DNA of 64,000 nt from an uncultured Planctomycetales bacterium (GTDB lineage: Bacteria > Omnitrophota > Gorgyraeia > Gygaellales > Profunditerraquicolaceae). This document shows positions 5,021 through 63,800 of the stretch, piece by piece; position 1 is the first letter of the stretch, and each line of letters opens with the position of its first letter. The DNA lies in NCBI GenBank assembly GCA_964354795.1, contig CAYHBB010000040.1, forward strand, positions 12,593 through 76,592, given 5' to 3'. The notes under the pieces are model-generated. The model saw nothing but the letters and a program-made list of their open reading frames with translations, was not told the origin of the DNA and did not search any database. A program made the position numbers and the translations under genes.

Positions 5021-5022
5021 CT

Positions 5023-9228: not shown

Positions 9229-9235
9229 AATATAC

Positions 9236-14697: not shown

Positions 14698-14719
14698 ATA
14701 TATGAAGACAAGTGAAGCT

Positions 14720-15889: not shown

Positions 15890-15931
15890 GGTCCTCCCTT
15901 CAAAGTAAACCTATAAATAATCCCCTAAAAA

Positions 15932-17167: not shown

Positions 17168-17324
17168 CCGGCTTTTTTCAAGTCTTTCCCCGTGGCAAAT
17201 ATTCTAGGGTTTTAACGCTAAACTTTATATTTGTAACCCTGCGATGAATACAAACATATTGTGGCTTGAATTATTTATACTACTAAATACTGCGTAAGTC
17301 AAGTAAATTTACTGATTTAGGGAA

Positions 17325-21446: not shown

Positions 21447-21492
21447 TGCAACTTCTCCTTTCCTTTATACACCTACTACTCTTTTTTTTATT

Positions 21493-24656: not shown

Positions 24657-24659
24657 ACT

Positions 24660-25547: not shown

Positions 25548-25549
25548 GG

Positions 25550-42800: not shown

Positions 42801-45800
42801 TCATCAGAGGAAGCCCTTCTTTTTAGCTGCTTTATTAACTCTGCTATCTTCTGTTGCGTTGTCTGATCTGTCTGCGCGGTAGTTTGGATTGCGGTATTAG
42901 TAGTTTCCTGCGCATATGCGAGATTCGGATTAGTTATAGCTAGAAACGAAAGGATGAAAAAGAACGGCAAAATCCAGAATCTGCGTAGGAGCGAATTCGG
43001 GGCGCGAGGTTTTTGCGGGCTGGATTTGATCTCGGTCCGGGCATTCCCCCCGATTGTATCCAGAATTGACTGCGTAGCAATAAGGTTCTTAAGCTCTGTT
43101 TGAATAATATTTTGTTTTTGCTCTGCTATTGTAGGCGAGTTGCATCCGACGTTAATAGAGACTGCGCGCGGGAAAGATGCCAGAAGCCTTCTCTCCATGC
43201 CGAAACTCCTTGCTTTATTTCCAACAATAATAAGATTTTCTTCGCTCAGGCCTGTGCGGGAAATAAAATCCCTTGCCGCTTCAAAAGGACCAAATCGCAG
43301 GATATTTAGGCTTTCTTCGCCCTGGAAGATGATTTCTGCGGAAAGGCCTTTTGCCCGCAGCGCCTCCTCTATCTCTGAAGCGAATTTCCGCCTTTCCTTG
43401 GCTAATTTGCTGCTGATCTTTATTTTCACTTTATAGTCCTGCCGCTTGATCTTATAAGAAAGGCCTGTGAGAGCATTTTTTACTACTTCCAAGATAGTTT
43501 GCCGGTCATTCGCGCTCAATTCAAAACGGTAATAACCGACTTTATTCCCCCGCTCGTCAAAACCAAACCCCCTGGTCCCGGTGTTGGAATATAAATGCAA
43601 GTTTTTAAGCAGCTCCTTCGGGATCTGCGCCCAGACTCGCGATTCCAGATTATCTTCTGTTTCATCGGTGATGATGGCAATATGCTTACCGCAACGTAAA
43701 AGATTGACAAGATGATCGTTGATCGCCAGGCTGACCGGCTGCTTAAGCGTAGCTATACAATCCTCCAAGCCGAAGATGAAACCATTGATCTTGCTTAAAT
43801 CGATTTTTACTCCCTGGATCGCGACCGCGCTTGAAACTTCCTGCGGCGCCTTTTCCTGTTTGTCAATTTGCGGCTCTATAACCTTAACTTTTTTGCGCTC
43901 TGTAACGACAATGCCGCTGGCCTTAGCCTTGATCAACCTGTCCCTGGCCCAGGAAAGCGTTTCTCTGACCTTCTTGCTGCCCTCAGCCTTTAAAGCCTTC
44001 TCCACCGCGCCTAAGGCGCCGGGATCTCCCAGTTGTCCCAATGACCATGCTGTCTTTTCTCTTACCTCTTCTGATTTATCGACCAATAGCAGTTCGCTTA
44101 AAACCTCTACGACCTCCGCGGTTTTTTCCGCCAGGGAATCCGTCAGGTCGCCTAAGCCTTCGGCAATAATCGCCCTTAAAGTCTCATCCTTGTCATTCAA
44201 GTATTTAATGGCCTCGCTGACCACCGCCTTGCCTCCTACATCAAGATATGCCTCTGCGGCCATCGTCCTGATTATCGGATCCTTATCCTCTTTGATGGTC
44301 TTCAGCAGCACCAGCAAAACTCCGTTATCTTTGATATTGCGCAGTGCCTGGATCACCTCCTGCCGCACCTCGTCGCTCCTTTCATCCTCTAATGACTTTG
44401 CTAATGCGGGTATGGTGGAGGGATCCGCGAATTTCTTCAAAGCCCTGGCTGACACCTTTCTCACTTCAACCGCAGAGTCATTGTGCAGTGCCGCTATTAA
44501 GTCCTTACCTGAATCCTTGAGGCCAATGACCCCTAATGAGGAAGCGGCCCAATACCTTACCTCCCTGCCCTTATCATTAAGCAGCGCCTTTCTTAATGCC
44601 TGCGCGATAGTCTCGTTCCCCGCATAATCGCCTAAAGCGCCGGCAGCATCGGCGCGGATTTTAGCGTTTCTATCGGTAAGCTCATCGATCAGACGGCGAA
44701 CCTTTATTTCATTATAGTTATTGGTAGTGGCGACGGGGTCGGCCTTGGCATCGTCCATTTTCACAGCCTCGGTTTTAGCTACGGGAACACTGCGGGGCAA
44801 CACAGCTTTTTTCCTCTGCGATTTCGGCATCAGGCTTTCCAGGTCCCTCATCTCCAGCTCATACAAATGGTCGGCTAAATGGACGCCGTCTTCAGTGAAT
44901 TTGAAGAAAAGATGCACGATCCTTAAATACTCCTTGTCGTCAAAATATCCCGGAGTGTGCCCGGTATTTCCGGCCATTTTCTTTACGCTGTCAGGCAGCT
45001 CCTTATCCGTCACCACCGTATTTACGAAAATGAATGCCGGACTTTTTAAATCCCTGATATTCAGCACATCGGGATATCCGGCATTCTGCCTGTATTGCCT
45101 GATATGCAATTTCTCGCCCCTGGGATTCCAGAAACGGAAACCATAGAGGCTGGTATCTTTTAGGCCCCTTTCAGAAATATTGTCAAACTCTTTCTGGATG
45201 ATTTTCTTTATCGCTTTAAAATCGTTATTTGCCCTTAAATCCCGGATAAACTTCGCGTCTCTGTATACCAGATGTGCGTACCTTGATTCGTCCTCCCCGG
45301 AAATGATCTCGTTAAGCGCGATCGCAAGATTAAGGTAGCCCTGGTGGGCATCGGGATAACGGTTGTGCTGGGTAGTGTCCACCACAATGACCACCGGCCT
45401 CTCAGCAAGCATCCTGTACAATATCTGGCTGCGCACAAATTTAGGGTCGATATAATAGGGGTTGGTATGGGTCTCGCTGGAGCCCACCTTGGCAAAGACT
45501 ATATCAATGTCATCCAGTTTCAGATCGCCCTCGATGAACGCCGCGGAAAATCTGCCCAGGGTAAAATTCGGCATTATCCAGACATCTCTGCCAAAAGAGG
45601 CGGACTGGACCTTGACTGCCTCAATGAACTCCTTGAGTTTAAGCGCCTCGTAAGCCGCATAGACAAGCTCATGCTCTATTGTGCCGCTATCGGGCAATCC
45701 TGACAGGCCATGGCAACCTGTACCGGAAAAACGGATATAGTCCTTGTAAGAAAGATTCTTAAATTGCATTGCGATAATGCGGCTGTTATCCACAATGCGC

Positions 45801-48800
45801 CTGAAATTCGAATACTCCAGTTCCGTATGCATGGGGTTATTGATATCGAACCTGCCGGCTTTTATCTGGGTCAGCATTGCCTGCCAATCCCTGTATAGCG
45901 CTATCCTGTCCGCAGCGCTCTTGGCCAGATTGATCAGCTGCTCCGTCGGGAACAGGCCGTGCCGGATGATCTCAAAGATTATATCCAGGGCGCCGCTTAA
46001 TGTAGCCTTGCTCATACCCTTAAAGACCTCGTCGTAGAAATTCTGGATGTCAAAGCCCTGCTGTTTCAACCTATACTCGAGCAACCCGATCGACTCGACG
46101 GTCTGCTCGGCATTGATCGGCCGCAGATCTTTGTCGAACTTCTCGAAGTAGGCCCTGAAACTGCCTTTGTCCTGTATAAGCGCGGCATCGCTTAGCTTGG
46201 TAAGGATCTGCTCAACAATATCCAGGTTGACTTTAAATTCGGACAGATTCCCGGAGACATCGATCGCTACGGGGACCGGGATCTCCAGCAGATGCCGGAT
46301 ATCCTTATTCTGCTGATGCATCCGGTAAGCGATCTCGATCACCGCGCCCAGGACTAAGAGGTCTTCACCCTTGGCGAACTGCTTTCTCGCCTGGTTCCTT
46401 ATGTCATCGAATAGCCTTTCTCCGATCTCTTTCTTGAATCTGCGCAGGATATAGAAATGCTCGGGGTTCAAAGCGGAGGAATAATCGTATTCGCGGGATA
46501 TTGACTCAAATCTAAGTGGGAATATTGAAAACCTGAAGGAAAACCTGACTAAATCTACACCTTTGCCAAATAAGGCAACTCCGGAATCAGACTGCAGCAG
46601 GATAACCGGGATCAGTATGGCTGCAAAAAGAGCAAATGCTGCAGCATAGGTGTATATGACATTAAATATGATCAAGGTAACGCAGATAACTACCGCAATT
46701 ATTCCTACAATAAATCCTGCGCCGCCCCTGCTCTCTGTCCCAAACCTTACCACCTTGGCTAATGTATCTTTGTCTATCCTCTCTTCCTTGCCGATCTTGA
46801 CCACCTCGGACATGGTCTTAAGGAAAGGCAAAGCGGCTTTTCCCTGCGCAGGCGGAGCCCTGATCTCCTGGATGAGCCTCTGGATAAGATAGGCTAAGAT
46901 CCCCAGGACAAATATCCCCAGGACTGCATAAATGACCGGGCTTAAGTTTATGGTAGCGATGGAACCAGCAAAGGCTAAAGGAATAACGGGAGCAAAAGAA
47001 TTTAATGAGGTTGTGTTATTCTGATTCTGCGGCCTCTGCGTCAGGCGGGACCTTATTCTTGCGCAGACAAAGCTTATTATCGAAATAATGGCATAGAACG
47101 CAGCCAGCGCGCCGGCGATTATCCCGGCGGGCTTGAGGTATTTCTTGAGGTTAAGCGGTTTTTTCTCTGGGGCAGACGCAGCCTTTGCCAATTCTTCGAG
47201 AGAGACGCGGGCCATAATTGCCTCCAGCGCCTGCTTGGCTGCATCGCGTTCTTTCTTAGAATGCTTGATTTCATTTGAAGCGATGGCTCTTAAATCATCC
47301 ACTGCATCTAATGCGCCTATTTGGCCAAGGCGATTTATAGCGGCCAGGCGAAGATCGGAATCTTTAAGCTTTAATGATCTTATTGCTACTGAAGCGTCTT
47401 TTGTCGATTCAATGAGCAATCTGGTCTTTATGACGGCGAACTTGCGGATGTCACTAGTCTTGGCCTCCAATAATTTTATTAATATCTCTATATCCTCGGT
47501 TGAATCGGCTATAGGCTGAAGGGCGCTACTGATCTCCCATTTCATGCCCTCTTCGTTTTCGTTTAGGAATTTAACAAGGGCAGCGACTGCTCCAGCGTCT
47601 TGAATTCTGCCTAGCATCTCAATAACGGCCCGTTTCCGAGACGACGCTCTAGCATCCCACCTTACAGCCGAAAACTCATCAATAAGCGGCCCCGTAGCCT
47701 GTTTTCCAACCTTTAGCAAAGCTTCCTCTACATCGGAATCCTCTACTCCAAACGCAATAAGGGTCCTTGCAGTTTCTTCGTTGCCGATTTCACCGAGCGC
47801 CCTAATCGACTCTTTACACTTTAACCTCCCTAAAGCTCCCACTGCGGGTGGCCCGATCCTGACCAGCTCTGGCCAATCTTTATTTGCGATCAAATATAAT
47901 ATTTTTTCTTCTTCGCTTGCCGCTGACCAACCCGCTTCTTTCAAGACTGCTACGGCGCCCTCTCTTATACGCAGGCAATCATCCTCAAGAAGAAAAACCA
48001 AGAAAGGCGCTGCTTCATTCTTCAGGCTGCTTAATGCCTTCCAGTCCTCTTTAGCAATAAAATATTTTATCTTTTCCACATCATTTTTCGGCCGCCAACC
48101 CAGCCTGCTTAAAACCTCAACCATACCTTCGCGCATCTTGCTATCCCCCCGGGGAAGTAATTCTATCAAAGGTTTTATCGCCTGAGGGCCGAGGGAAGAT
48201 ATATCATCGACAAAAGAGTCTTTTCCCCTATTTTGGGCTAGTGCATAAGCAACTTTTTCATGATAAGTTCCCGGCTTCCACCTCGCTGCATCAAGCACTG
48301 TCAATGCAAGATCGGATTTTCTTTTATCGCGATCCGTGAGCAGCTCGATCATTAAAGGGCTGATTTGCCGGCTGCTCCTACCCGCCAGCACGGGAATTGT
48401 CCAGTATTTGTTACGGAAATTTGATGGCCCGGAAGACTCCGTTCTTTCAGCTTCTTCTCTTTCTATGTATTCGCGGATAAGCGCATCATTATCTTTAAAA
48501 GCAGTGGGAATCTTGAAAGAATAGTAGATAATTACCGGTAATACAAAAAGAGCAAAGTAGCCTAGTCTTGCCCTCCAACCGAACTCATCTAGGCTTAAAA
48601 TTGAGATAAGAACCGAAAGGGCGAATACAGAAGAGACGATCAGCCAAAATGATATAAGCCCGGGATTAATGATGAAAAGGGCGAGCAACAGGCCGTTTAA
48701 GATCGTGAAACCGATAGGAACAGCACGGCCAAATAGATCTTCATCCTTTTCTTTCATCATCAGTAAAGAGGCTCTTAAGGCTAATATACAATTCAAGGCA

Positions 48801-51800
48801 AACACGGTAAAAATAATCTTACCCGCCAAAGGTATAAATATTAAATTATTGTGAACAACATAAAGCCCCGTAAGCCCCAAGGTGACAAGGATGAATCCAA
48901 TAGCTGAAAACATTAATTGAGGTTTTTCATATGTATCATAACCTTTTATTATCGAATTTCTATGCATCAGCCAGCGTAAAGAACGGTATATAGTTTCTGC
49001 TATAATTGCCGCAACCGCTATGCAGACTAAAACGGTGGTTATGCCGCTGTCATTAAACAAGGGGGCTAGCATAAGGTTGGCCCCATAGAGGTTGCTTGAG
49101 CCATTCTTGTCGTTTATTTTATTCTCAGCCGCGCGGGAACGGGATCTGGATATCAGATAACTTATGGCCGAGGCTAAAACATAGATTAAAGCGAGCGTAC
49201 CTGCGATTATACCTGCAGGCTTAAAGTATTTCCTAAAGTTAAGCGGCTCTTTTTTGGCCTCTCCTGCCACCGTAGCCCATTCTTCGGCAGTTGTGCGCGC
49301 CTTGATCGCCTCAAACGCCTCTTTGGCAGCTTGGCGCTCATATTTATTGTATTTGATTTCGTTGAAAGCAATGGCTTGCAACCTAGAGACCACCTCTATA
49401 TCTCCGACTTTGCCTAAAGCTTCTATGGTATATCTACGGACCGATCCTTCATCATCCTTTAACGCCTCAAGCAATACAGAAACTGCTTCTTTATCTCCGA
49501 GATTACCTAATGCTTGAGCTGCAGAACTACGGACTCCCCAACTCTCCTGCCTTAATGCCTCGATAAGATACGGGAGAGCCTGCTTATCGCCGATCCTGCC
49601 CAAGGCTGTTACTGCGCAGTCGCGCATACGCGGCGTTTTGTCTTTTAATAACCCGATAAGATAGGGTAGCGCCTGTTTTTCGCCGATCCTTCCCAGAGTT
49701 ATTATTATTGACTCGCGGACATCCAGGTCCTCGTCTTTTGTTACCTTTAATTCCTCTATAAGAGCCGGGCCGGCAGGCAGGCCGATCTTAACTAAAGCCT
49801 GCACCGCTGAACATCGCACAGAGCCAGATCTATCCTTTAATGCCTCGATAAGGGCCGGGATTGCTTGTCGGTCACCGATCTTACCTAATGCGTCTGCTGC
49901 GTGGTTGCGGACCCATTCATCACCGTCATTTTTCAATACTTCTATTAATTCTTCTATCTTTTTCTCATTAACTACATCTATTTGGGTAACTTCGGGTTCA
50001 ATGCTTGTGTTTGTACCCTGCGCATAGGAAGCTGTAGAGCTGAACAACGCGGGAGATAAAATAAATGCCAGCAGCATAATTAAAAGCGAAGAATTGAATT
50101 TGCCGGATAGAAGCTTTCTTGATCTTTCCCTGGCGCGGATATAGCTGATACTTAAGACAATCATATAGATTAAAGCAGACACTCCCAAAACAACTCCGGC
50201 GGTCTTCATGAACTGTTTAAACTTATAAGATTTCGAAGTGGCCTTCTCCCATTCCCGAGGGGAAACTTTGTTTTTTATCTGCTCTAATGCTGCCTTGGCG
50301 TTGTTCCTCTGGCCTTCGTTATATTTGATTTCATTTAAGGCAATGGAGTTAAGCGGCTTTACTGCCCTGATATCTCCAATTTTACCTAAGGCTTCCATAG
50401 CTTCTTCGCGGACAGAATAATCTTCTAGTGCTTTGATAAGGGCCTCTGTTGCTTTTGGATCACCGATTTCACCTAATTTACCTAAAGCTTTCACGGCTTC
50501 TTCGCGGACAGAGTAATCTTTCAGTGCTTTGATAAGGGCCCCTATTGCTTCTTGACCGCCAATTTCACCTAATGCTTTTACCAAATATTCCCGTCCAAAG
50601 CCACTTCCTCTTTCTAGTTTTTCTATAATGGTTTTTGTATAAGCTCTCAAGGGTTCTATGGCACGAGGATCGCCAATTTCTTTTAAAGCCTTTGCTGCTT
50701 CTATATTAAAATACGAGTCTTTATCTACAATAATCTTAATAAGCGGCTCAACTGCATCTGGGCCAATCTTTACCAATCCTGCCCAATCATGTTTTGCGAA
50801 AAAATAAGGTATCTTTTCTTGATTAGTTTTTGGTTCCCATTTTAATTTATCTAGAATTTCTGCTATTTTCTCCCTAATAAAGGACAAATTTTCATCATTT
50901 AATGCACTAATAAGCTCAGGAATTGCGGGTTGCCCGATTCCAACTATGATTTCGGAACCAGCTTTGGAAAGATATTCGTTCGAAGATATACGAAGTTCTT
51001 GAAGAATAGGTTTAATCACAGACGGGCCAATATAAATCAATGAATCAGCTGCCTGTTTACGAACATAATAACTTTTTTCTTTCAATATATGGATAAGAGC
51101 TGGGACTGCAGGGGAGCCGATTTTCATTAAGGCTTCTCCTGCGGATTTAAAAATAAAGCGATCCTCATCTTTCAATGCTCCAATGAGACCGGGAACAGCG
51201 GGATATCCAATGTCCGCTAAAGCTTCGGATGCAGTTTTGGAGATATACTGATCTTTTAATGCTTTAATAAGGGCTGGGATAGCTTCTTCGTCAGCGATTT
51301 TGCCTAGCGCTTTTGCTGCCTCCGCCTTAATAAGAATATCTCCATCATTTAATGCTCTAATAAGAACCTGGACAGCTCGCTTATCCTTACTCTCGCCCAA
51401 AACCCGAATTTTTGATGAAAGATCAAGAATTTCTTCTATAGACCTCTGGTCATCATATTGGGCATATGCCTTTCTCTGATTAGGTAAAATATTCGACAAG
51501 AATACAATGATTAAAATAGTTATTAATGATTTTGTTTTGCTTTTTGCATATTTACTTTGGCTTTGCTGTCTGATCTGTTTTTCTTTTCTAACTGAATCAT
51601 TCTTTTTTTGCAACCCTGTGGATTTTGTCCTTACCAGAACATAGCTTATAATTGAAGTAATGATGTAAAATAGAGCAAATACTCCGCCAGCAATAGCTGC
51701 GGGCTTGAGGTATTTCTTGAAGTTAAGCGGTTGTTGGGCGGTAGCCTTTGTCCATTCTTCGGCAGGAGTGCGCGCCTTGATTGCTTCAAGAGCCTGCTTG

Positions 51801-54800
51801 GCAATTTCTCGCTCTTGCTTTGAGTGCTTAAATTCGTTTCCGGCGATGAATTGAAGCTCGCTGGCTACATCTATATCGCCAATTTCAGCAAGCTTCTTTA
51901 TGGCTTGCAGATTGATATCTGATTCTTCAACATTTAATAACGCCCTCAATCCCGCTATATCCTCTGTAGATTCAGAAAATATTTTCAGACTATTTATCGC
52001 AACTTCATGCGTATCTTTATTTTGTAAAGCGTTGATTAAAGGCCCGATTGCCCGAGGGTCTTTAATCTTTGTTAAGATTTCTGCCGCTAATACACGAAGG
52101 ATGACATCTCTATCCTTCAATGTTTTTGTTAAAGAATCGACTGCGGGGGGGCCTATTTTAACTAAAGATTCTGATGCGATCTGGCGCACGGTAACGTCCT
52201 TGTCTTTCAAAGCATCTATTAACGGCTTGACGGCCCTTGGGTCATTGATTTCTCTCAGGGCTTTTGCTGCGGCTTCGCGCACCGGCATTTCTTCATCTCT
52301 TAAAGCTTTGATTAGCTGTTCAACTGCTCTTGGGTCTTTAAGCTCGCCTAAGACCTTGGCTGCGGATTCACGAACGAATAGGTAATCATCGGTTAAAGCT
52401 TTAATAATAATTTCGGATGCTCGCACATCTTTGCTCTTACCTAAAGCTTCGATAACGTGACTACGAAATCCTCCGTGTTTATCTCCCAAAGCCTCAGCTA
52501 GCGCTTCGAATGCTCGAGGGTCTTTAATTTGGCCTAAGCCCCGCACAGCATTCTCGCGCACCCAGAGATTCTCATTTTTTAAGGCGCCGATCAGAGAATC
52601 AACTGCCGGTTGTCCAATTTTAGCTAAAGCATCTGCCGCAACCTGACCAACCTCATTATGATAACTATAACGGGCTCTACTATACGCATTTGTATATCCA
52701 TCTCCCAAAGCCTTAATTAGAGGAGAAACAGCCTTTGAATCCCTCAAAACACCTAATATTTCAGCTGCTGTCTTACGGACAATATAAGATTCATCCCCCA
52801 AGGCTTCAATCATAGAAGTAACTGCTCCGGGATCTTCGATCTTGCCAAAAGCTCTTACTGCTTCCTTGCGAACATTCCGATCTTCATTATTCATTAATTT
52901 GCGTATCAATTCTTTTATCTTTTTCTGGCTGGCTTCGTCTGTCTGTGCGACTGACTGGATTTGTGTGGAATTCGTGTCCTGCGCATGGGTAGTCTCAGGT
53001 AAGATGGCAAAATAAGGTAAAGCGGATACTGCTAAGATAGACAAAAGTTTGGGATTAGTTTTTCTTGATTTTATCCTTGCGTAAATAAAACTTATGAGGC
53101 AAGCGACAGGATAAAGTAAAATAATTATTGCTGCAATTATGCCTGCGGGTTTGAGGTATTTTTTAAGTACAAGCTCTTTCTCGGGTGTAGCCGATTTCTT
53201 TGCCCATTCTTCAGGAGTGACTCTTGCCTTAATCGCTTCCAGCGCCTGCTTAGCGGCCTGGCGCTCTTCTTTGGAATATTTGATCTCGTTTTGCATAATA
53301 AATTGAAGCTGAGAAACCGTATTTATATCCCCGGCTTCGCCCAACTGCACTATTTGCTGTATAAATTGGCCCCTATTGCTCAATATCTCATCGGCCCATT
53401 CGTTTCTGAGCTTCTTTTCTTGCTCATAGTCCCGGCTTAAAACGTAAGAATGCCTTGTTTCCGGTAAATCACGCAGCCCATAATTAGAAAAGCCATCCTG
53501 TTCATCCTTCTTAGGCTCTATTATAAAGTACGGCTGTCCTTTACTTAATTTCTCCAACAGAGAAGATGTATCGCTAACAGCCATATTGAACTTGGGGTAC
53601 CAATATAGGCAAAGATATACACTAATAAAGACAGGAACAATCCAGATGAAAGGAGTAAGGCCGATCTTGCCTTCAAGAGTGAAAGATGAAGCCGTCCATA
53701 AAGAACGGGTTGCTTCTAGGCATTTGGCAAAGCATGGGCAAAGTAGAGCACCCCAAATAATGACGCCCCAAGATAAAAGAGCCGCATTTATAAGATGCAA
53801 GGTAAGGAATAATACGCCCCAGAAAATGACACTTTTTGCATGGCATTTTATAGCAGTATACCTTTCAACCTGCCTAGTTTCACTTACAGCTTTTATCAGG
53901 ACAAATGATTGGAACAAAATGTTTGCTACTAAGGTCATGGCTATGATTGCCGCTGCCAAGCCGCCAACAATATTTCCTGCTGTAAATTTATAGACAAATA
54001 GCGCTACGAAACAAGCGTAGGCCAGAAAATTACCCGCCCATGCCAAACCAACAACAGGACTTTCCTGAGCACCTATCTTCTTTATGGCTATTTTCGATAT
54101 GCCATAGAATATGCCTGCTAGGGCAATAAAAGCAAGAGCAGCATAAATTAAATCTGTATTTACTGTAGCGAATTTGTCCATAAAGGCCAAAGGAAGGAAA
54201 ATATTCAGGCAAGTTGTGCTGGTAGGGCCTTGTCCTTTTTGTTTCTGAATGAGGCCGCGCTTTATTCTGGCCCGTACATAACTGATGGCCGAAACAATAA
54301 TGTAAAGCGCCGCTGATATTCCTGCGATCATGCCTGCGGGCTTAAGGTATTTCTTAATATTACGCGGCTCTTTTACCGGAAATGCCTTTGCCCATTCTTC
54401 GGCAGGCGTGCGCGCCCTAATAGCTTCCAGCGCCTGCTTAGCGGCCTGGCGCTCTTGTTGGGAATGCTTAAATTCGTTAGCGGCGATGAATTGAATCCTG
54501 GGTAACGCTACAATACCCCCCACCTGGCCAAGCCTTCGAATTGAAATCAAATAAATCTTTGCATCCTTACTGTCTAAAAGCTTAATCAACAAAGACACAT
54601 CTTGAGTAACCTCGATAATATTCGTAAGGCTTGAATAAACAACCTCGCGAGCTCCTTCAGAATGTCCGTCTTTTAACAACTCGATTAAAGGCTCTACTGC
54701 CCGGGAATCTTGAATCTTTCCTAGGGCTTCAATCGTAGTCAATAAAACAGGCAAATCTTTTCCTTTCAGCAATTTCAGCAGCTCAGGGACTAACTCTCGC

Positions 54801-57800
54801 GTATCTGGACCCAACTCACCTATACAGAAAATCACTTGTTTTTGGAGCTCTTTGTCTTTATTGAAAATGTTCTCGCTAAAGACACGAATGGCTTTCTTGT
54901 CTTTCAATTGTCCGAGAGCGCTTAATGCCTTGGCCCTTACTCTAAGATTATCCGATCTGGCAAACTCAACTAGCATATCAAAAGAAGGAGAACCTGAAAT
55001 GTATTTAATAATCGTATTTTCTGATGCCATACGCACAGACTCATCTTCATCAGAAAGAGTCTTCAATAATATCTTTGTGATTTGGAGGTCTTCAAACGTC
55101 TCGATTGCTTCAATAGCCGCGACGCGGATCTCCGAATCAGGAACGGCTAGGATTTTCATGATCAATCCGTTGTTTTTAGAAGACCTGATCTCGTCTTTCA
55201 CCGAATCTCTGACTGAATCATTAACAAATCCTTTGCCTGCGCTTATTAAGCCAATAATGGCTTCCCATGATTCCGGAGTTCTCAACCCAACCAAAACTTT
55301 TATAAAGTTATCGGATGAAGAAAAGCCCGGCTTTAAACTTATTGCGTCAATAATATACGGAATTGCCTGATTGCCTGTTTCAGATAATCCTTTCCGATCA
55401 CACTTTGCTACAAAATATAATATCTTTAGCTCTTTATCGCGAGGCGTCCACGATAATTTATCCAATACTCTTACAGCAAAAGTCCGCGTTTCGAAATCTT
55501 TACTGCTCAACGCCGCTTCCAGATATGGTATTGCTGACTGACCGAACCCAAAAACTGTTTCCTCTAGATTTATCTTGCAATCTGAAGAAGCCTTCCCTGA
55601 AATCTTAATAATCTCGGGGACAATAGATTCATCGAATTGGGCTAACGTATGAAATATAGGGCCGAATCCTTGATCATACAAACTATGGTAAGGCCATCCT
55701 ATGCCACAAGTGAAATATCTTGACGAACTCAATGCTTCAATAAGGGCCGGTATTGCTTGTTTATCTCTAATCTCTCCAAGGGCAATTATCGCGCCCTCCC
55801 TGATCGAGGAAAACTTATTTTTTAAAGCTTCTGTCAAAAGCGGAACTGTCAATCTTTTATCCATCCTAACTATAGTTTTAATTGCAACATCACGGGGGCT
55901 GCTTAAGCCTCCTGTGAAAACTGGAAGATTATGCCCTGTGTCCGCTAACAATTCCAGTAACTCATTCAGGGCTGGTGTAGCCGGAGGGCCAATCTTAGTT
56001 AATGCTGCGGCCGCATCTTGGCGGACACGCGGATCTTGGTCGATCAATTTTTCTATCAATTCTTTGGTTATCTCTTGGATAGCTTTGTCGATTTGATTAG
56101 TTGCCGGATTTGCCTTGGTATCTTGTGCGTTGACAGTTAAAGAATAAAGTGCTGAAAATGGCAGGATAAACGCAAACAATAAGGTTAAGAAAGTAGGATT
56201 TGATTTTCCGGCTCGAATCTTCCTCAGGCTTATCCTGGCGCGAATATAGCTAATAAAGCAAACAACAGGATAGATCAAAATAAGCACCGCTAAAGTTATG
56301 CCTGCGGGCCTGAGGTATTTCTTAAGGCTAAGCGGCTCTTTTGCCGTAAATGCCTTTGCCCATTCTTCCGCAGGCGTGCGCGCCTTGATCGCCCCCAACG
56401 CTTCTTTAGCGGCTTGGCGCTCTTCTTTGGGGTGCTTGATTTCGTTCTGGACGATAAGTTGGATGCGGGGGATAACATTAGAACCGCCAACATTACCAAG
56501 CCGTTTAATAGTAATTATGCGTACGGCTTCAAATTCTCCTGTTATTGATATATTCCTTCTGGTATCTAATATTCTTAATAAGGCAGGGACATCTTGGGTG
56601 GATTCAGCAATTGATTTCAGGCTTGAAGCAGCAGCTGAGCTGACATCGACATCAGCATCTCTTAATGCTTCAACTAAAAGCCCTACCGCTGTTGAGTCTC
56701 TGAATTCACCCAAGACTTTAGCTGCAGCTAACCGCGTGTCTTTTCTGCCTTTTGTCAAGGCTACTGTTAATAATTCGATTTTTTCATATCTCCTGATGTA
56801 CCATTCAGGTAGAGCCTGGTCAAAATAGCGCAAGGCTTTGACTGCGGATTGGTGGACGATTTCAGAACCATCTAGCGCTGCAATTAAAACGGGGAAAGCT
56901 TCTTTCTCGCCGATTTCACCCAGGGCTTCAATTGCGGATTCGCGGACATGCCGATCTTCATCTTTCAAAGCTGTTATCAGTCCTTCTATCTTTTTCTTTG
57001 TGGCTTCATCTGTCTGGGTGATTGCGGGATTATTATTTGTATCCTGTGCGTAGGTAGTCGCGGTAGAAGATATGCCAAGGAGAAAAGAAAGGAATACCAA
57101 TAAGAATGCTGGAGCTTTTACATTCTTACTAACCGGAGGCGCTCTTGTATTCTGGGTGAGTTTCCGGAGGCTAAATAAAATTACTATGCCAAGTACAAGA
57201 AGACCTACGCAGATAAGGTTGGCATCAGCTGGGATGATATTGGTCATAAAGGCTAAAACATGGGCGGGAATGAGGGAATTTAACGAGTTTGTGTTTGCTT
57301 TGTCTTGCGGCCCCTGCGTCAAGGGGGACCTTTTTCTTGCGCGGATAAAGCTGATGAGGCAGATGACGGGATAAAGCAAAATAAGTATTCCTGCGATTAT
57401 GGCTGCGGGTTTAAGGTATTTCTTGAGGTTAAGAGGTTGTTTTGCTGTGGCCTTGGCCCATTCTTCGGGCGTGACGCGTAATTTTATCGCCTCCAGCGCT
57501 TCCTTGGCTGCCTGGCTCTCTGCTTTGGAAAATTTGATTTCATTCTGAGCAATTAACTGAAGTTTGAAAAGTGCGGTTATATCTCCTACTTCGCCAAGCC
57601 GAGTAATAGCAGCTATACGAAAACCTCCCTCATCTAAAAGCCTAACCAGCGTTGGGACATCCTGGGTGAATACAGTAATGGATTCAAGAGCCTTGGCTGC
57701 CTTTTCGCGGACACGACTATCGGATGATTGATATAATAATGCCTCAATAAGGGCTGGAACGGCGTCTTTGGCTGCTGGTCTAATTTGGCCTAAGGCTTCG

Positions 57801-60800
57801 GCTGCCCTCCAGCGTACCTCGTAACGCCCATGCTTCAATGCCTCAATAAGAGATGGGATTGCGGGAGGGCCGATTTTGCCTAAGGCTTCGGCTGCGCAGG
57901 AGCGGACATTACTATACTCATCCTCTAATGCCTCAATAAGAGATGGGATTGCGGGAGGGCCAATTTTGACGAGAGCTTCTGCTGCGGATAAACGGATAGA
58001 TTCATCTTTTAGCGCCTTAATAAGTAAGAATATAGCATCTTTGGCGTCAGGGCCAATTTGGCCTAAGGCTTCGGCTGCCTTCCGGCGGACAGAATCATCT
58101 TCATATTCATCTTTTAATGCCTCAATAAGTTTTGGCATTGCGTCTTTGGCAGGAGGACCAATTTGATCTAAAGCTTCTGCTGCGCATAAACGGATAGATT
58201 CATTTTTATCTTTTAATGCGTTAATTAGGGCTGGGATGGCGTCTCTGGCGGTAGGACCAATTTGGCCTAAGGCTTTGGTTGCCGCATAGCGAACAATAAA
58301 TTTTTCGCTTTTTAATGCTTCGCTAAGGGCCGGAACTGCATCTATGGCTGCTGGGCCGATTTTGCCTAAGGCTTCGGCTGCGGATTCGCGACCCCACCAA
58401 CCCTTATCTTTTAAGATTTCAATGAGGGCCGGGATGGCGTCTTTGGCGTCAGGGCCAATTTGGCCTAAGGCTTCGGCTGCGGTGCCGGCACCCGGGCGTC
58501 CAACTTTCAATGCCGCTATCAAAGCAGGGATTGCATCTTTAGCCGCAGGGCCGATCTTACCTAAGGCTTCGGCTGCCCTATGGCGGACAAACGGTTCTTT
58601 ATCCTTCAATACCTCGATAAGGGCGGGGACTGCTAAAGAACCGATTTTGCCTAGGGCATCGGCATCATAGCCATGAACATCTTTTAGTTTCCGTATCAAC
58701 TCTTCTATTCTCTTTTGTGTAGCCTCATCCGGTTGGAACTGGGTTATAGTGGTGTTGGTGGCGGGTTCCTGGGCAAGGGCAGTTGTAGTATTGGGCTGGC
58801 CGGTCAGTGTTGCTAGAAGGGCTAGAATAAAGGCTAGTGCTTTGGCAGGAGGAGCTCTTTGCTTCTGGGTAAGCTTGTAGAGGGCATAAATCAGGATAGC
58901 TAAGCTTGCCAGAACAAGGCTGGTATAGACAAGATAAGGACTAAGCAGGATAAGCTTATCGATGGATGCTAAGGGAAGGATCGGGAGTACAGAATTCAAC
59001 GTAGTGGTATTTTGACCTTGGCCGGGCTGATTCTGCGCTTTTTTCGATATTATCCTCGCGCGGATAATACTTATGATTGAGACTATGGCATAGAGTGCAA
59101 CCAGCGCGCCGGAGATTATGCCTGCGGGCTTGAGGTATTTCTTAAAGCTATGCGGCTCTTTTACCGGGAACGCCTTCGCCCACTCTCCGGCAGGCGTGCG
59201 CGCCTTGATCACCTCCAAAGCCTTTTTCGCTGCTTCGCGCTCTTCCTTGGAGTATTTAATTTCGTTTTGAGAGACGAGTCTGAGCATGAGGGCTGCATTT
59301 GTATCTGCGGTTACTGAAAGCCTGCGGATTGCTGCTAAGCGAGTCCGTATTACATCTGACCTAGCCTCTTTAATATATTCTTTTCTGGAACCACACCCAA
59401 AATTCTCAGAATTACCGACACGCCAGGTGTTTATCTCCAATATTTTTAATAAAACAGATGCATCATCCGTGGATTCCATAATCTTCTGAAGACTTTCTGC
59501 TGCATAACTTCGAACCTGAGGATCTAACAAATCTTTGATAAGAAGATCTACTGCCCTTGCTTCTTTAAGCTCACCTAATGCTATAATTGCGCCTCGATGG
59601 ACCCTCCAGGTGCTGTCTTTCATTGCCTTCAATAAAGGTTCTACAGCCGGCTGACCTATTTTAGCCAAAGCTACCGGAGCTTCAATAAAACCGACATTCC
59701 CGCTTTCATCGTCTAAGGCGCTCATTAAAGGAGCTATCGCCCTTGGATCCCCGATTTCGCCTAAGGCGTAAGCCGCGCTATCACGAATGAAAATAATTTG
59801 ATCATAATTAACCCCCCTCAAGACCCTGATCAAAGGCTCAACAGCTGCCGGGTCTTTGATTTCAGCTAGGGTCCTAATAGCTGTTTCGCGAACGCGCCAA
59901 TCTTTATCCTCTAGCTTTCCTATCAATTCTTCTATTTTCTTTTGCTTGGTTTCGTCTGGCTGGGTGATTACGGGTTGTGTGTCCGTATTAGTATTCTGAG
60001 CAAAGACCACTGCGGGAGCAAACACGCAGGAAGATAAAGCGAATATTAAAAATAAAGCTGTGAATTTGGAATTGGATCTGCCTGATCTTATCCTTGCGCG
60101 GATATAACTTATAGCTGAGGCAATGACGTAGAGCGCTGCCAGCGCGCCTACGATTATGCCTGCGGGCTTGAGGTATTTCTTAAATTTAAGCGGCTCTTTT
60201 GCCGGAAATGCCTTTGCCCATTCTCCCGCAGAGGTACGCGCCTTTATGGCTTCCAGCGCTTCCTTGGCGGCCTGGCGCTCTTCTTTGGAGTTCTTGAATT
60301 CGTTGGAAGCGATAAACTGCAGTCTCTGCACTATGGATATGTCACCCACCTGGCAAATACGGTTAAGTGCGGATAGACTTACGCCTGACTGCCTGATTTC
60401 CATCAGGCGCAACAATAGGGTTATGTCTGAAGTATCCTTAGCAATCGTTTGTAGTCCGAAGACAGAGGCCTCAACAAGAGACTGATTAGAGCCATTTAAA
60501 GACTCAATTAAGCAATCGGCTGCCGGATCGCCTATTTTAGCCAAAGCAGAGACTATGGATTCGGCTTTTTCTGCGGGTAAAAAAGAATGTTCCTTTAATT
60601 CTTTGGCGAGAGCGGGAATGGCGCTTTTTGCTTCAGGGCCGATGTTCCCCAGCGCCGTTACCGCCTCCTCTCCTGCGCCATAATCATTCAAGGCTTCGAC
60701 AAGAGCAGGGACCGCATCTTTGGCCGCGGGGCCGATGCGGCCTAATAATCTCGCGGCGTATTTATGGTCGTCATAATCATTGTTTTTCAGTGCCGCGATA

Positions 60801-63800
60801 AGATAAGGCACCGCTTCTTTTGTCTCGGGGCCGATACGAAGATCTGCTAAAGCCTCCAGGTCGCCCTTCGCAACCGCATACATGATCATTTCCTTCGGAT
60901 TCTGCGGCTTCCAGCCAGACTCATCGAGTATCCTTGCCACCACGGCCTTGTCGATATTTTTATTTTTTAGCTCTTCTAAAAGCGCAGTGATCGCGGGAGC
61001 GCCGATATCAGATAGGACCTTTGCAGCATGATTACGGCAGTCGCTTTTCTCGTCTTTCAACACATCTATAAGGAATGGGACTGCAGGGCTGCCGATCTTC
61101 ACTAACGCGTTGGTAGCCGATTCGCGCTCTCCATACGAATTAAGCGCTTTAATAAGATGCGGCACCGCATCTTTTGCTTCCGAGCCGATATTACCCAAGG
61201 CCTCTGCCGCTTTATAGCAAAAACCAATATACGTCTTGTCTTCAAGTAATTTAATGAGAGATGGAACCGCATCTTTGGCTGCGGGTCCTATTCCGCTTAA
61301 GACATCCGCAACTTCATAGCAAGCCTTTTGATTGTTTAACAATTCAATAAGCGCCCTGACTGCGTCCTTGCCCTCAGGACCGATTTTCTTTAGGGCTTCA
61401 GCTGCGCAATGGCAGACCCAATAATCTGCGTCTTTTAATGTTTCGATAAGGGCGGGGACTGCATCTTTGGCTGCGGGTCCGATTTTGCCTAAGGCTTCGG
61501 TTGCGGATGAGCGGACATCCTTCTCTTGATCTTTCAATGCTTCAATAAGTGCTGGGACTGCGTCTTTGGCAACGGGCCCTATATCACCCAAGGCTTCGGC
61601 TGCGGATGAGCGGACATACTTCTCTTCGTCTTTCATTGCCTTTATAAGGCCAGGAATCGCATTTCTGGCAGCAGGGCCGATTTTACCTAAGGCCTCGGCT
61701 GCGGATGCGCGGACATACCACTCTTTATCTTTTAATGCTTGAATAAAGTTCGGGATTGCCTCTTTAGCAGTGGGGCCGATTTGACCAAGAGCTTCTATTG
61801 CCCCACTTCGAACCTTATAATTTTCATTTTTTGACGCTTCAATGAGGGCAGGCACAGCTGGTGAGCCGATTTTGGCCAAAGCTCTTATTATAGGATCATC
61901 TGTCGTATACGTGGTAGTCAGGGCTTCAATCAGATAGGGAACGGCGGGTAAACCAATGTCTTTTAATCTATATATCGCTAATGCACCATCATTGGGAAGC
62001 CAATAGTTTTTTCTACGTAAATCTTCTATTAGTTTTTCGATCTCAGCTTTCTTTTCTGTTTCCGTTATTCTTACTTCCTCTGCATAGGAGGCTGTGGAGG
62101 AAAATGCGGCAAAGAACGGTAAGGCCAATAATATAGGTACGAGGATGGCGCTTAAAGCCTTATTTATCAGAGGCGGGCCGCGGCTGAAAGCGCCTTCGTT
62201 AACCCCTAAGGCCTTCCGCAAAGCTTCTGCGATGCTAGCTATATCCGCAAGCACGATATTCTCCAAATCCTCCTGCCTAAAACCTTCCGTGGCCAATTCA
62301 AGAGTTAAGCTGTTATTTGTCTTTGCGGCATACAACTTGGCTCCGATACCTCCGTGATTTAATACAATGAGCTTTTTATTAGCCTGTAGCGTAGTTACCG
62401 CCTCATGCATAGTGCCGCCGGATCCATTTAAAACAATCACTATATCCGCTACCTTTCCCACTCCGATCCTTCTCTCAAACATTCCCCGGCCGATGTGCGC
62501 CACTTTTACATCTTTATCCCCGGCCGCCTCCTGATACTTCCTGTCCGGCGTAAGCCCTTCCGGCAATAACGCAAAGAATCTCTCTCTCCCAGCTTTATTT
62601 TCGCTGCACATGCCTTTAAATACATCCGCGCCTACTCCGCCCACGCCGCCGGTAAACACAAAACCTTCGGCTCCCAGATATTGCGACAACTTTCTTCCTA
62701 GCTCCTGGCCTATTTCAGCAGAATAACCTTTTGAAGGCATCGTCGCGCCTATCACCCCGATCTTTATGCCCGGGAATTCGCGCCTGATGGCTTCGGCCCT
62801 TACGCCTAATTCCTCTGACCTGTCTTTCTCGGTCTTGGCACCAAGCTCTTCTTGCGGTTTATTTTCCAAAAGGACACCCTTGTCCTGGCCTTTACCTTCA
62901 CCCTTATCCTCAATCTTCATCCTTATCCGGATCAAGTTTATCAGCTCACCCAGCACATAATCTCCGCCCCGCCAGCCGTGGAAAGGATAAAACTCGATGC
63001 CAGCGCGCAGATGCCGGTGATGTATCCTACCTCCGACGGAGAAGACTTTCGCGCCTTTTACCATCATCTCCCTGTCGTCTCCGGACTCATCAAAGCTATT
63101 GCCTAAGATCACAACCTCATTTGGTTTTGGCACGGCGCCGAACCTCCTTAGGCAGACCTTCGTCAGATGATGTTTCACCGCGAGGGATTTATCTACCTCT
63201 TTCATGGTCATACGTATGGAGGAATGCCCGATTTCTTTAAGCTCTATTAACAGCTTATCTTTCTCCAGCTGCTCTTCCAGGCGTTTATAGACCTGGCGGC
63301 GCAAAAAGGCCCTTTCTTTCAGGCGCACGATGATCTGGCTGCCGGCATCGATGATTTTCACCGAATTATAGATGATCTCGCCATTATCATCCGCGACCGG
63401 TTTGGTCAATCCGTATTCTGCCAGCAGATCATCGATGATCTCCCTCCATTTATCCAGCTGCGCGTCGCTCATTATGGCTTTGGCGGTATCGTAAAGCGCT
63501 TCTTTAAGCGGCTGGCCGTTTTGATCAAAGCCAAAACCCTGGCTCCCTGTGGCAGGATAAACAGTCAAATTATGCAACAATGATCTATGCTGCAAAGGAA
63601 CGGCTTTAATAAGATATTTTTCCACTTCTTTATAGCTTTGGGTAGTGACTATGGCCACCTGCACGCCAAGCTGCAGAAGATAAAGCAGTTTCTGCATTAC
63701 TGATTCCGGGACTTCTTTCAGGGTATGCGCCAGAGTGCCGTCTAGATCAGAAATCACCGCTTTAAAAGGAAGCCTCCCCAGATTCTGCGGCCTAGCGGAT

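What the first reader, a model, noticed from the sequence alone, without database searches (positions are those of the whole stretch)
43080..63780. Internal duplication of the N-terminal HAD-like domain (second copy catalytically degenerate): the giant gene appears assembled from tandemly fused multi-domain units
The N-terminal domain (motif I VISDLDGTL; VAIVTTQSYKEVEKYLIKA; ATGSQGFGFDQNGQ; ILGNSFDESGDD) reappears about 6,700 residues later (nt ~43080-43810) as GFIFGLEDCIATL; HIAIITDETEDNLESRVWAQ; NTGTRGFGFDERGN; IIVGNKARSFGME. The second copy has lost the nucleophile Asp (DxDG becomes GxED). Each copy is followed by a TM segment, HEAT arrays and KKYLKPAG modules. This points to an ancestral [HAD-(LOG)-TM-HEAT modules] unit that duplicated in tandem and fused, with one enzymatic copy decaying to a structural or pseudo-enzyme domain.
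Basis: seen in the sequence. Interest (0 to 1): 0.7.

Follow-up and report, generated by a model that had tools for sequence, protein, structure and literature searches.

The report
Two HAD domains, one dead, in giant gene
A giant membrane-protein gene of an uncultured Omnitrophota bacterium carries two old, diverged copies of a phosphatase-like (HAD) domain, one of which has lost every catalytic residue; this is real, but it fits the known habit of these giant genes of stringing together repeated units.

Summary
The HAD-IIB domain at aa 44-304 (nt 62987-63769) recurs at aa 6702-6930 (nt 43109-43795): BLASTP E 8e-9, Smith-Waterman z 15, profile comparison 98% over 212 columns. A structure model of the second copy matches HAD-IIB enzymes. 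The second copy has lost the nucleophile Asp, the second Asp, the motif III Lys and the motif IV Asp.

- The ORF runs off the window edge, so the first copy is not N-terminal.
- The two copies belong to separate paralogue classes (C and D; class D 100% bootstrap, class C 85%). The split predates the sampled Omnitrophota, so this is not a recent in-place tandem duplication.
- Eight class D orthologues keep the motif I aspartates and motif III lysine, and seven keep the motif IV aspartate. The loss is therefore specific to this lineage. The rest of the domain is as conserved as in the orthologues.
- Each HAD sits at the C-terminal end of a cassette [helical region, uncharacterised X domain, HAD, sometimes SLOG]. 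It does not head a HEAT block.
- Both cassette-bearing proteins exist as complete 2-5 kaa genes elsewhere.
- The 15 HEAT/TM modules show no block correspondence across the second HAD; their closest pairs are mostly neighbours.

This is an ordinary member of the known Omnitrophota giant-gene class, with some new details.

The parts
27839..64000 (-). Giant ORF: at least 12,053 codons inside the window, stop codon at 27839-27841, 5' end beyond the window edge.
   Evidence: One search lists 27839..63898 (12,019 aa from an internal GTG). One search shows the frame stays open to nt 64000. Orthologous ORFs carry 2,450-3,300 aa upstream of the equivalent HAD (L002; P0012 and P0014).
63818..64000 (-). 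C-terminal tail of a first X domain ('SHTPAYFDD...NVD..GVSLSD'), cut by the window edge.
   Evidence: The X-domain profile matches here at E 1e-14, profile positions 708-764 of 795. BLAST pairs it with aa 6311-6347, 46% identity. It aligns with the N-terminal parts of P0001 and P0002.
62987..63769 (-). HAD-IIB domain, paralogue class C (aa 44-304). Catalytic residues intact: D51, D53, T55, T85/86, K237, D275.
   Evidence: Pfam Hydrolase_3, 30.8 bits against a cut-off of 20.9. NCBIfam HAD-SF-IIB and Cof hits lie below their cut-offs. 59-61% identical to P0001 and P0002. It clusters with L001_C, L003_C and P0014_C at 100% bootstrap.
62219..62767 (-). SLOG (LOG-like) domain, single copy (aa 378-560).
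   Evidence: Pfam LDcluster4, E 4.3e-10, 39.8 bits against a cut-off of 26.3. No second copy appears in the self-scan.
62084..62158 (-). Signal-peptide-like hydrophobic segment ending 'ASYAE' (aa 581-605). It marks the start of HEAT module 1.
46589..62083 (-). Ten HEAT-array modules (M01-M10), each ending in the conserved 'W.KA..PL.LKKYLKPAG' + TM + 'RARIRS' anchor. Most begin with a signal-peptide-like TM. Three modules in the whole ORF carry roughly 7-TM blocks.
   Evidence: Pfam HEAT_2, E 1e-253. Hydropathy. Anchor HMM copies. Identity matrix and tree.
44801..46588 (-). preX helical region plus a complete X domain (aa about 5771-6366). X is an uncharacterised alpha/beta domain with conserved PN..G, GS.E.H, VVD(G)T, RYPDA.GY.N, FWN and H.P.YFDD.
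43919..44716 (-). HEAT array of about 265 aa inserted between X and the second HAD (aa 6395-6660). It is conserved in class D orthologues and absent between X and the class B and C HADs.
43109..43795 (-). HAD-IIB domain, paralogue class D (aa 6702-6930), catalytically degenerate: G6710, E6712, C6714 (motif I), P6871 (motif III Lys), E6902 (motif IV Asp). The motif II Thr is retained.
42908..42991 (-). Signal-peptide-like segment 'RRFWILPFFFILSFLAITNPNLAYAQ' (aa 6970-6997). It marks the start of module M11 and is not part of the HAD unit.
   Evidence: It resembles the N-terminus of the stand-alone protein P0015.
36014..42907 (-). Five further HEAT/anchor modules (M11-M15).
27842..36013 (-). C-terminal ~2,700 aa without HEAT repeats. 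It holds an M23-peptidase-like segment (aa 9615-9707), a weak methyltransferase-like segment, nine tandem 89-aa repeats (aa 10489-11273) and two TM pairs.
27061..27753 (-). PilZ gene immediately downstream of the giant ORF.
   Evidence: Pfam PilZ, E 1.4e-24. West-Roberts et al. report pilZ genes directly downstream of most Omnitrophota giant genes.

Best explanation
The window holds the 3' 36 kb of a giant inner-membrane protein gene of a Candidatus Omnitrophota bacterium. The polypeptide is a chain of units that occur elsewhere as separate proteins.

The commonest unit (15 copies) is a signal-peptide-like TM, a HEAT-repeat array and a conserved 'KKYLKPAG' TM anchor. At two places an enzyme cassette lies between an anchor region and the next signal-like TM: a helical preX region, the uncharacterised X domain, then a HAD-IIB domain. 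A SLOG domain follows the first HAD.

The two HAD domains are ancient paralogues (classes C and D) that diverged before the sampled Omnitrophota lineages split. In other genomes they sit in different complete genes:
- the ~4.4-kaa 'HAD-A, X-HAD-B, X-HAD-C, SLOG' proteins;
- the 2-5-kaa 'HEAT, anchor, X, HEAT, HAD-D' proteins.

Here both lie in one ORF. The likeliest route is end-to-end joining of such genes plus local duplication of HEAT modules.

The class C copy keeps all four HAD motifs and is presumably an active phosphatase or phosphomutase. The class D copy has lost the nucleophile Asp, the acid/base Asp, the motif III Lys and the motif IV Asp, only in this lineage. The rest of its sequence is as conserved as in active orthologues. 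It is therefore most likely a pseudo-enzyme kept for a non-catalytic role, such as ligand binding or packing against X and the HEAT array.

Shown: homology, paralogue classes, loss of catalytic residues, unit boundaries, and stand-alone homologues. Inferred: direction of change (fusion), cytoplasmic location of the cassettes, substrate class, and the non-catalytic role.
For: Homology of the two copies:
- BLASTP E 8e-9, Smith-Waterman z 15.2, hhalign E 1.9e-13 over the whole domain, and a HAD-IIB fold for the model.
- The ORF part in the window holds exactly two HAD copies, one full X domain, and an X tail at the edge.

Taxon and locus type:
- The closest genomic loci are Candidatus Omnitrophota MAGs.
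- A PilZ gene lies directly downstream and GH2 genes lie nearby, as reported for Omnitrophota giant genes.

Paralogue classes:
- NJ with 200 bootstraps gives class D 100%, class C 85%, class B 95%, class A 100%.

Orthologues of the second copy keep the catalytic residues:
- L008 and P0006-P0011 and P0015 have DxDx(T/V), K and FG.DRR. The only exception is P0011 at motif IV.
- The window copy is 35-54% identical to them.
- Its HAD/X identity ratio is 0.88, against 0.81 for pairs among the orthologues, so there is no general acceleration.

Stand-alone genes:
- P0015 (2,018 aa), P0014 (4,408 aa) and P0007 (4,899 aa) are complete genes flanked by unrelated genes.
- The L003 ORF ends with a stop about 250 aa after SLOG, with no HEAT tail.
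- In P0007, HAD-D is followed directly by SLOG.

Unit boundaries:
- There are 15 anchor copies.
- There are 12 internal signal-peptide-like segments ending [YFNLH]A[QE], against 3.2 expected.
- Module similarity is mostly between neighbours and shows no block correspondence across the second HAD.

Literature:
- Repeated Pfam domains occur in 65% of Omnitrophota proteins of at least 10 kaa and are attributed to old duplications (10.64898/2026.06.07.730766).
Against: - The direction of change is not established. The giant form could be ancestral, with the 2-5-kaa genes as fission products.
- Several comparison contigs (L001, L008) carry frame changes, so some gene boundaries there are unreliable.
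- The trees are distance-based on about 250 columns and rooted on a single distant sequence (P0003).
- Membrane topology was judged only from hydropathy and charge, so the side on which the cassettes lie is inferred.
- No substrate is known for any of the HAD classes, and the X domain has no confident structural relative.
- The 5' part of the gene is outside the window, so the full architecture is unseen, including the expected HAD-A and HAD-B copies.
Confidence: 0.72

Rival explanations
1. One reading: an ancestral [HAD-(LOG)-TM-HEAT modules] block duplicated in tandem inside this gene, the two halves fused, and the second enzymatic copy then decayed.
For: - Both HADs are followed by a hydrophobic segment and HEAT/anchor modules.
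- The HEAT array after the second HAD finds its best match in the array after the first one: aa 7003-7157 against aa 700-857, 51-56% identity.
- HAD-D followed by SLOG exists in P0007.
Against: - The HADs fall in different old paralogue classes, each with orthologues elsewhere.
- Anchor modules show no collinear mapping between the two halves.
- The aa 700-1000 array is closer to aa 1800-2050 (62%) than to aa 7000-7226.
- In complete homologues the HAD is the C-terminal end of a unit, and the following TM is a signal-peptide-like start of the next unit.
- Orthologues of the second copy are catalytically intact, so the decay is recent and unrelated to the duplication.
Confidence: 0.08
2. The giant arrangement is ancestral. 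The shorter 2-5-kaa homologues in other Omnitrophota arose by gene fission, or are artefacts of fragmented or error-prone assemblies. On this view nothing was fused here.
For: - L001 and L008 show the homologous region split over several frames.
- L002 is a 9.3-kb contig that is one ORF open at both ends.
- Many public Omnitrophota long ORFs are truncated at contig ends.
Against: - P0015, P0014 and P0007 are complete genes with unrelated genes on both sides, in contigs of 26, 18 and 97 kb.
- P0015 starts with Met followed by the same signal-like segment that occurs internally in the window ORF.
- The L003 and P0001 orthologues end at the same stop after a conserved C-terminal domain that the window ORF lacks.
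Confidence: 0.15
3. The second HAD copy is still an enzyme that uses a shifted or alternative residue set, for example E6712 or D6713 in 'GLEDC'.
For: - Two acidic residues remain in the motif I loop, and E6902 replaces the motif IV Asp conservatively.
- The overall domain sequence is under constraint.
Against: - From established knowledge of the HAD superfamily, the Asp nucleophile at the end of strand 1 is essential. It is Gly here, while all 8 orthologues and every other paralogue examined keep Asp.
- The motif III Lys, which stabilises the phospho-aspartyl intermediate, is replaced by Pro.
- Four independent catalytic positions changed together.
Confidence: 0.05

Closest known systems
Giant membrane-associated genes of Candidatus Omnitrophota (West-Roberts et al. 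2023, bioRxiv 10.1101/2023.11.21.568195; 2026 preprint 10.64898/2026.06.07.730766)
   Same: - Omnitrophota origin, an ORF above 10 kaa, and many TM segments.
- HEAT_2, HAD and Lysine_decarbox/SLOG-type domains are among the frequent domains.
- A pilZ gene lies directly downstream and GH2 genes lie nearby.
- Repetition of a domain within one polypeptide is the rule (65% of such proteins) and is attributed to old duplications.
   Different: - No SecA_DEAD, C39 or dockerin domains were found in the 12,053 aa visible here.
- As far as my term searches of the two papers show, they do not describe the X-HAD cassette, the four HAD paralogue classes, the lineage-specific dead copy, or the regular signal-peptide-like starts of the HEAT modules.
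HAD superfamily, subfamily IIB (Cof-type phosphatases, eukaryote-type phosphomannomutase, trehalose-6-phosphate phosphatase, ISN1 IMP nucleotidase)
   Same: - Copy 1 passes the Pfam Hydrolase_3 cut-off and has all four motifs.
- The model of copy 2 superposes on 4bnd, PMM1/2, ISN1 and T6PP at E 1e-12 to 1e-9.
- The cap lies between motifs II and III, as in C2B-type enzymes (secondary structure).
   Different: - Motif IV carries an insertion: G(N/D)xxxxxG.DR in place of the usual GDxxND.
- Both copies are embedded in a giant membrane protein and are always preceded by the X domain.
- Copy 2 lacks the nucleophile, so it cannot be filed as an active HAD phosphatase.
SLOG/LOG superfamily, LDcluster4 (own knowledge: Burroughs et al. 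2015, nucleotide-centric systems)
   Same: aa 378-530 score above the Pfam cut-off for PF18306, with the typical GGxGxG...G(G)xGT.E signature visible in the sequence.
   Different: It is present once only, after the class C HAD. In P0007 it follows the class D HAD instead. Its function here is untested.
Type I phosphoribosyltransferases (HGPRT, UPRT), as the nearest fold for the X domain
   Same: - The strand-loop 'P(V/I)IIVVDGT' resembles the PRPP-binding loop in position. This is an inference from the sequence and was not superposed.
   Different: - There is no sequence-profile hit to any PDB or Pfam family.
- The domain is about twice the size of a PRTase. This is a resemblance, not membership.

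Membership tests
HAD superfamily, subfamily IIB: first copy (aa 44-304) | Profile score above the curated cut-off. | tested here: met
   PF08282 Hydrolase_3, 30.8 bits against a cut-off of 20.9. NCBIfam TIGR01484 scores 24.8 against 41.8, below its cut-off.
HAD superfamily, subfamily IIB: first copy (aa 44-304) | Four catalytic motifs: DxDx(T/V), T/S, K, and an acidic motif IV. | tested here: met
   D51-L-D53-G-T55, T85/T86, K237 ('VDKS') and D275 ('GDDR') are conserved across classes A, B and C.
HAD superfamily, subfamily IIB: second copy (aa 6702-6930) | Homology and fold: Rossmannoid core with a C2B-type cap. | tested here: met
   hhalign 98%, E 1.9e-13, 212 columns. Model pLDDT 70.9 with Foldseek hits to PMM-like, ISN1 and T6PP structures at E down to 9.5e-13. 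Alone against Pfam and NCBIfam it gives only sub-threshold hits: S6PP E 0.045, TIGR02471 E 4.8e-4.
HAD superfamily, subfamily IIB: second copy (aa 6702-6930) | Catalytic motif I nucleophile Asp and Asp+2. | tested here: not met
   G6710 and E6712 stand in place of D and D. All 8 orthologues have DxD.
HAD superfamily, subfamily IIB: second copy (aa 6702-6930) | Motif III Lys and motif IV Asp. | tested here: not met
   P6871 replaces K (8 of 8 orthologues have K). E6902 replaces D (7 of 8 orthologues have D).
Pseudo-enzyme (catalytically dead homologue retained under constraint) | Dead active site while the rest of the domain is conserved like active orthologues. | tested here: inconclusive
   The HAD/X identity ratio is 0.88 for window pairs against 0.81 for other pairs, so there is no global acceleration. 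There are no close relatives for a dN/dS test and no activity assay.
SLOG / LOG-like (LDcluster4) | Profile score above the curated cut-off. | tested here: met
   PF18306, 39.8 bits against 26.3, aa 378-530. Single copy.
Omnitrophota giant genes (West-Roberts et al. 2023) | Omnitrophota genome, ORF above 10 kaa, numerous TM helices, pilZ directly downstream. | tested here: met
   The closest loci are Omnitrophota MAGs. At least 12,053 codons. More than 40 hydrophobic segments. PilZ at 27061-27753. Paper text.
Omnitrophota giant genes (West-Roberts et al. 2023) | SecA_DEAD helicase-like or C39 peptidase domains, which most full-length examples carry. | tested here: not met
   Pfam finds none in the 12,053 aa inside the window. 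The 5' part of the gene is outside the window and could not be tested.
Type I phosphoribosyltransferase (for the X domain) | PRT fold with a PRPP-binding loop, plus significant sequence or structure match. | tested here: inconclusive
   [not shown]
   The copies fall in classes C and D, each supported separately. The modules show no collinearity.

The most novel reading that the evidence does not exclude
The giant ORF is in effect an operon turned into a polyprotein. At least 15 complete exported, tail-anchored HEAT proteins and two or more enzyme-bearing proteins are joined end to end. Each keeps its own signal-peptide-like start with an AxA|Q-type site. Signal peptidase, or another protease, would cut the chain at these sites during membrane insertion, and the pieces would assemble in fixed stoichiometry. 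The dead HAD would be a regulatory or ligand-sensing subunit next to the X domain. This would give concrete cleavage points for Omnitrophota giant proteins, which the literature says are unknown.
Probability: 0.15. Interest if true: 0.75.

Novelty: new member of a known kind. Interest (0 to 1): 0.42.

Why it matters
It shows how one Omnitrophota giant gene is built. The building blocks are recognisable units with clear borders: a signal-like TM at the start and a conserved TM anchor at the end. Counterparts of the two enzyme-bearing units are ordinary 2-5-kaa genes in relatives.

This gives a practical way to cut such proteins into meaningful pieces for structure prediction. It also gives candidate processing sites that proteomics could test.

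The dead HAD copy is a clean natural case of very recent pseudo-enzyme formation, with active orthologues available for comparison.

The X domain is a rare, uncharacterised, confidently folding domain. It occurs in Omnitrophota and in several DPANN archaeal and one Gracilibacteria contigs, all lineages described as ultra-small or host-dependent (my own knowledge for the last two).

The HAD duplication itself is not surprising for this class of genes.

Tried and rejected
- Word-indexed homologue search with the internal HAD segment found nothing. The same search with the N-terminal 600 aa found 3 proteins and with the X region found 1. The exhaustive phmmer search was needed.
- Sequence searches of the PDB gave only marginal HAD hits for copy 1 (best E 0.012) and none for copy 2 or for the X profile.
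- The first attempt to scan genome contigs with the six-sequence alignment failed because it had no conserved stretch. A three-sequence alignment worked.
- I considered a recent duplication. No nucleotide similarity exists between the copies.
- I considered more hidden HAD or SLOG copies. Profile and self-scans find none in the window.
- I considered global relaxed selection on copy 2. The identity ratios do not support it.
- I considered that the substitutions are sequencing errors. They are multiple separate substitutions in an unbroken frame.
- A Biopython bootstrap run timed out and was replaced by a faster script.
- The 5' end of the gene could not be recovered with the tools and caps available.

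Full report
WHAT IS IN THE WINDOW

A single reading frame on the minus strand runs from the stop codon at nt 27839 to the window edge. The ORF tool lists it as 27839..63898, 12,019 aa, from an internal GTG. Translating the last 300 nt shows the frame stays open to nt 64000.

THE OBSERVATION

All quoted peptide strings are at the stated places. The evidence for homology is:
- BLASTP of aa 1-340 against the rest of the protein gives one significant hit, aa 49-129 against aa 6708-6785, 32% identity, E 8e-9.
- The Smith-Waterman score is 110, against 33 +/- 5 for 500 shuffles.
- A six-sequence profile of the family aligns with the internal segment over 212 columns, aa 45-288 against aa 6704-6915, at 98% probability and E 1.9e-13. 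The similarity covers the whole domain.
- Pfam calls the first copy Hydrolase_3 (HAD-IIB) above its cut-off. The second copy alone gives only weak sucrose-phosphatase-type hits.
- An AlphaFold2 model of the second copy (five-sequence alignment, pLDDT 70.9) matches phosphomannomutase-like, ISN1 and trehalose-6-phosphate phosphatase structures at E 1e-12 to 1e-9.
- A family profile finds exactly two copies in the visible ORF.
- The two coding regions share no nucleotide similarity.

THE DEAD ACTIVE SITE

The first copy has all four HAD motifs: D51, D53, T55, T85/86, K237 and D275. The second copy has G6710, E6712 and C6714 in motif I, P6871 in place of the motif III Lys, and E6902 in place of the motif IV Asp. 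Its motif II Thr is kept.

Eight orthologues of the second copy were recovered: L008, P0006-P0011 and P0015.
- All eight have DxDx(T/V) and the Lys.
- Seven have the motif IV Asp.
- The window copy is 35-54% identical to them.
- The ratio of HAD identity to X-domain identity is 0.88 for pairs with the window, against 0.81 for pairs among the others.

The domain as a whole has not drifted faster than its active orthologues, but its catalytic residues have been replaced. This pattern fits a recent pseudo-enzyme. One relative (P0005) has lost the domain altogether.

ORGANISM AND GENE CLASS

The closest genomic loci are Candidatus Omnitrophota MAGs: L002 at 44% and L003 at 58% identity. The ORF is followed directly by a PilZ gene. 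Further downstream lie an ABC sugar transporter, GH2-like genes, and ROK and LacI genes. Two papers describe this class of locus:
- Giant Omnitrophota genes with many TM segments, and HEAT_2, HAD and Lysine_decarbox among the frequent domains, usually followed by pilZ (10.1101/2023.11.21.568195).
- GH2 flanks, and repetition of a Pfam domain within one polypeptide in 65% of proteins of at least 10 kaa, ascribed to old duplication followed by divergence (10.64898/2026.06.07.730766).

THE REAL REPEATED UNIT

Comparison with the contig carrying the homologue P0001 showed that each HAD copy there is preceded by a region matching aa 6077-6346 of the window protein.
- The 34 codons at the window edge plus aa 1-27 match the tail of the same region: 'SHTPAYFDD...GVSLSD' against 'GHTPGYFDD...GVHLAD'. 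BLAST gives E 8e-6 and the profile gives E 1e-14.
- I call this the X domain. It is about 400 aa and is preceded by a helical 'preX' part.
- It has no Pfam or PDB sequence match.
- It has only 185 relatives among 1.84 billion representative proteins.
- It forms the C-terminal domain of stand-alone 800-1,300-aa proteins in Woesearchaeota and another archaeal MAG, and a 362-aa match lies in a Gracilibacteria contig.
- It folds with high confidence, pLDDT 91.3.
- In the internal cassette a ~265-aa HEAT array lies between X and the HAD. Class D orthologues share this feature.

PARALOGUE CLASSES

An alignment of 26 HAD copies from the window and relatives gives four classes in an NJ tree with 200 bootstraps: A (100%), B (95%), C (85%) and D (100%).
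- The window's first copy groups with L001_C, L003_C and P0014_C (100%).
- The second copy lies inside class D.
- The two copies therefore separated before these lineages diverged.

In other genomes the classes sit in different complete genes:
- P0012 and P0014 (about 4.4 kaa) have HAD-A, preX-X-HAD-B, preX-X-HAD-C, SLOG and a C-terminal domain.
- P0015, P0009 and P0010 (2.0-2.4 kaa) have a signal-like TM, a HEAT array, an anchor, TMs, preX-X, HEAT and HAD-D.
- P0007 (4.9 kaa) adds SLOG after HAD-D.
- P0015, P0014 and P0007 are flanked by unrelated genes on contigs of 26, 18 and 97 kb.
- The L003 ORF and P0001 stop about 250 aa after SLOG, at the same C-terminus, with no HEAT tail.
- L002 shows at least 2,450 aa in frame upstream of the HAD-C orthologue.

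In them the HAD is the last domain of the unit, or is followed only by SLOG and C-terminal domains, and never by HEAT modules.

THE HEAT MODULES

An HMM of the 'W.KA..PL.LKKYLKPAG + TM + RARIRS' region finds 15 copies, ten before and five after the second HAD.
- They are 35-61% identical to one another.
- The tree pairs mostly neighbours (M8/9, M11/12, M14/15, M4/5), with two distant pairs (M3/6, M7/13).
- No ordered correspondence links the two halves.
- The array after the first HAD is closer to aa 1800-2050 (62%) than to the array after the second HAD.

Twelve modules begin with a stretch that looks like a signal peptide: basic residues, about 18 hydrophobic residues, then '..A.(Y/F/N/L/H)A(Q/E)', a Thr/Asn-rich linker and 'KKIEELI..L.D.DW.VR'. 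Chance would give about 3.2 such sites. The hydrophobic segments after both HADs (aa 581-605 and 6970-6997) are of this kind, and P0015 starts with the same pattern. The segment after each HAD thus belongs to the next unit.

MECHANISM

The evolutionary account is well supported: concatenated units, old paralogues, and a lineage-specific dead copy.

The functional account is inferred.
- The short basic loops between an anchor TM and the next signal-like TM suggest that these loops, and by extension the enzyme cassettes, face the cytoplasm, and that the module HEAT arrays lie on the other side.
- This rests on hydropathy and charge only.
- PRT-like X, an ISN1/PMM-like HAD and SLOG together suggest chemistry on nucleotides or sugar phosphates. 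No substrate can be named.

WHAT REMAINS OPEN

- The direction of change, fusion or fission.
- The 5' part of the gene.
- The topology.
- Whether the chain is cleaved.
- What the dead HAD does.

VERDICT

The case belongs to a known class in which such repeats are common.

Noticed in passing
window 63899-64000 (minus strand): The giant ORF is open to the window edge, so its true start lies outside the window. By analogy with P0012, P0014 and L002, some 2,450-3,300 further residues, including more HAD and X copies, are expected upstream.
   Followed up: partly
window, giant ORF aa 581-605, 1275-1299, 1684-1708, 2259-2283, 2566-2590, 3614-3638, 4121-4145, 4601-4625, 6970-6995, 7374-7398, 7857-7881, 8770-8794: Twelve internal signal-peptide-like segments end in [YFNLH]A[QE], against 3.2 expected by chance. 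Each lies at the start of a HEAT module. They are possible signal-peptidase-type processing sites, whereas the literature says cleavage points of Omnitrophota giant proteins are unknown.
   Followed up: partly
[not shown]
   Followed up: partly
window 30080-32434 (aa 10489-11273): Nine tandem repeats of 89 aa, about 60% identical, with a weak DUF4290-like Pfam signal (E 6e-13 for the protein, no single stretch passing). Function unknown.
   Followed up: partly
window 34778-35056 (aa 9615-9707) and about aa 10050-10250: An M23-peptidase-like segment with visible HxxxD and HxH motifs (Pfam E 0.0018, below the cut-off). A weak SAM-methyltransferase-like segment ('VMDIGAG', E 0.066) lies in the C-terminal non-HEAT part.
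   Followed up: partly
window aa 3246-3430, 4952-5130, 8141-8315: Three roughly 7-TM blocks follow anchors M05, M09 and M13. aa 4995-5420 and 8190-8604 are collinear at 27-39% identity. No family was assigned.
   Followed up: no
L002 (JAGVOB010000133.1), 1-9300: The whole 9.3-kb Omnitrophota contig is one ORF open at both ends, and its last 13 codons repeat its first ones ('SVNGNTYQPRTQT'). It is either a collapsed tandem repeat inside a giant gene or an assembly artefact.
   Followed up: no
L001 6674-12937 and L008 1-6992: Homologous X-HAD regions in two relatives are split over two or three reading frames with overlapping ORF ends. These are either sequencing errors in long-read assemblies or real frameshifts or pseudogenes.
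   Followed up: no
P0005 and P0011 (relatives): P0005 lacks the class D HAD entirely: the HEAT insert joins straight to the 'NPNIIQTDIKNL' tail. P0011 has Gly in place of the motif IV Asp. The class D copy may be dispensable in several lineages.
   Followed up: no
window 27061-27753 and 13675-26869: A PilZ gene lies directly downstream of the giant ORF. It is followed by an ABC sugar-uptake system, two GH2-like genes, and ROK kinase and LacI regulator genes. This matches the flanks published for Omnitrophota giant genes.
   Followed up: yes
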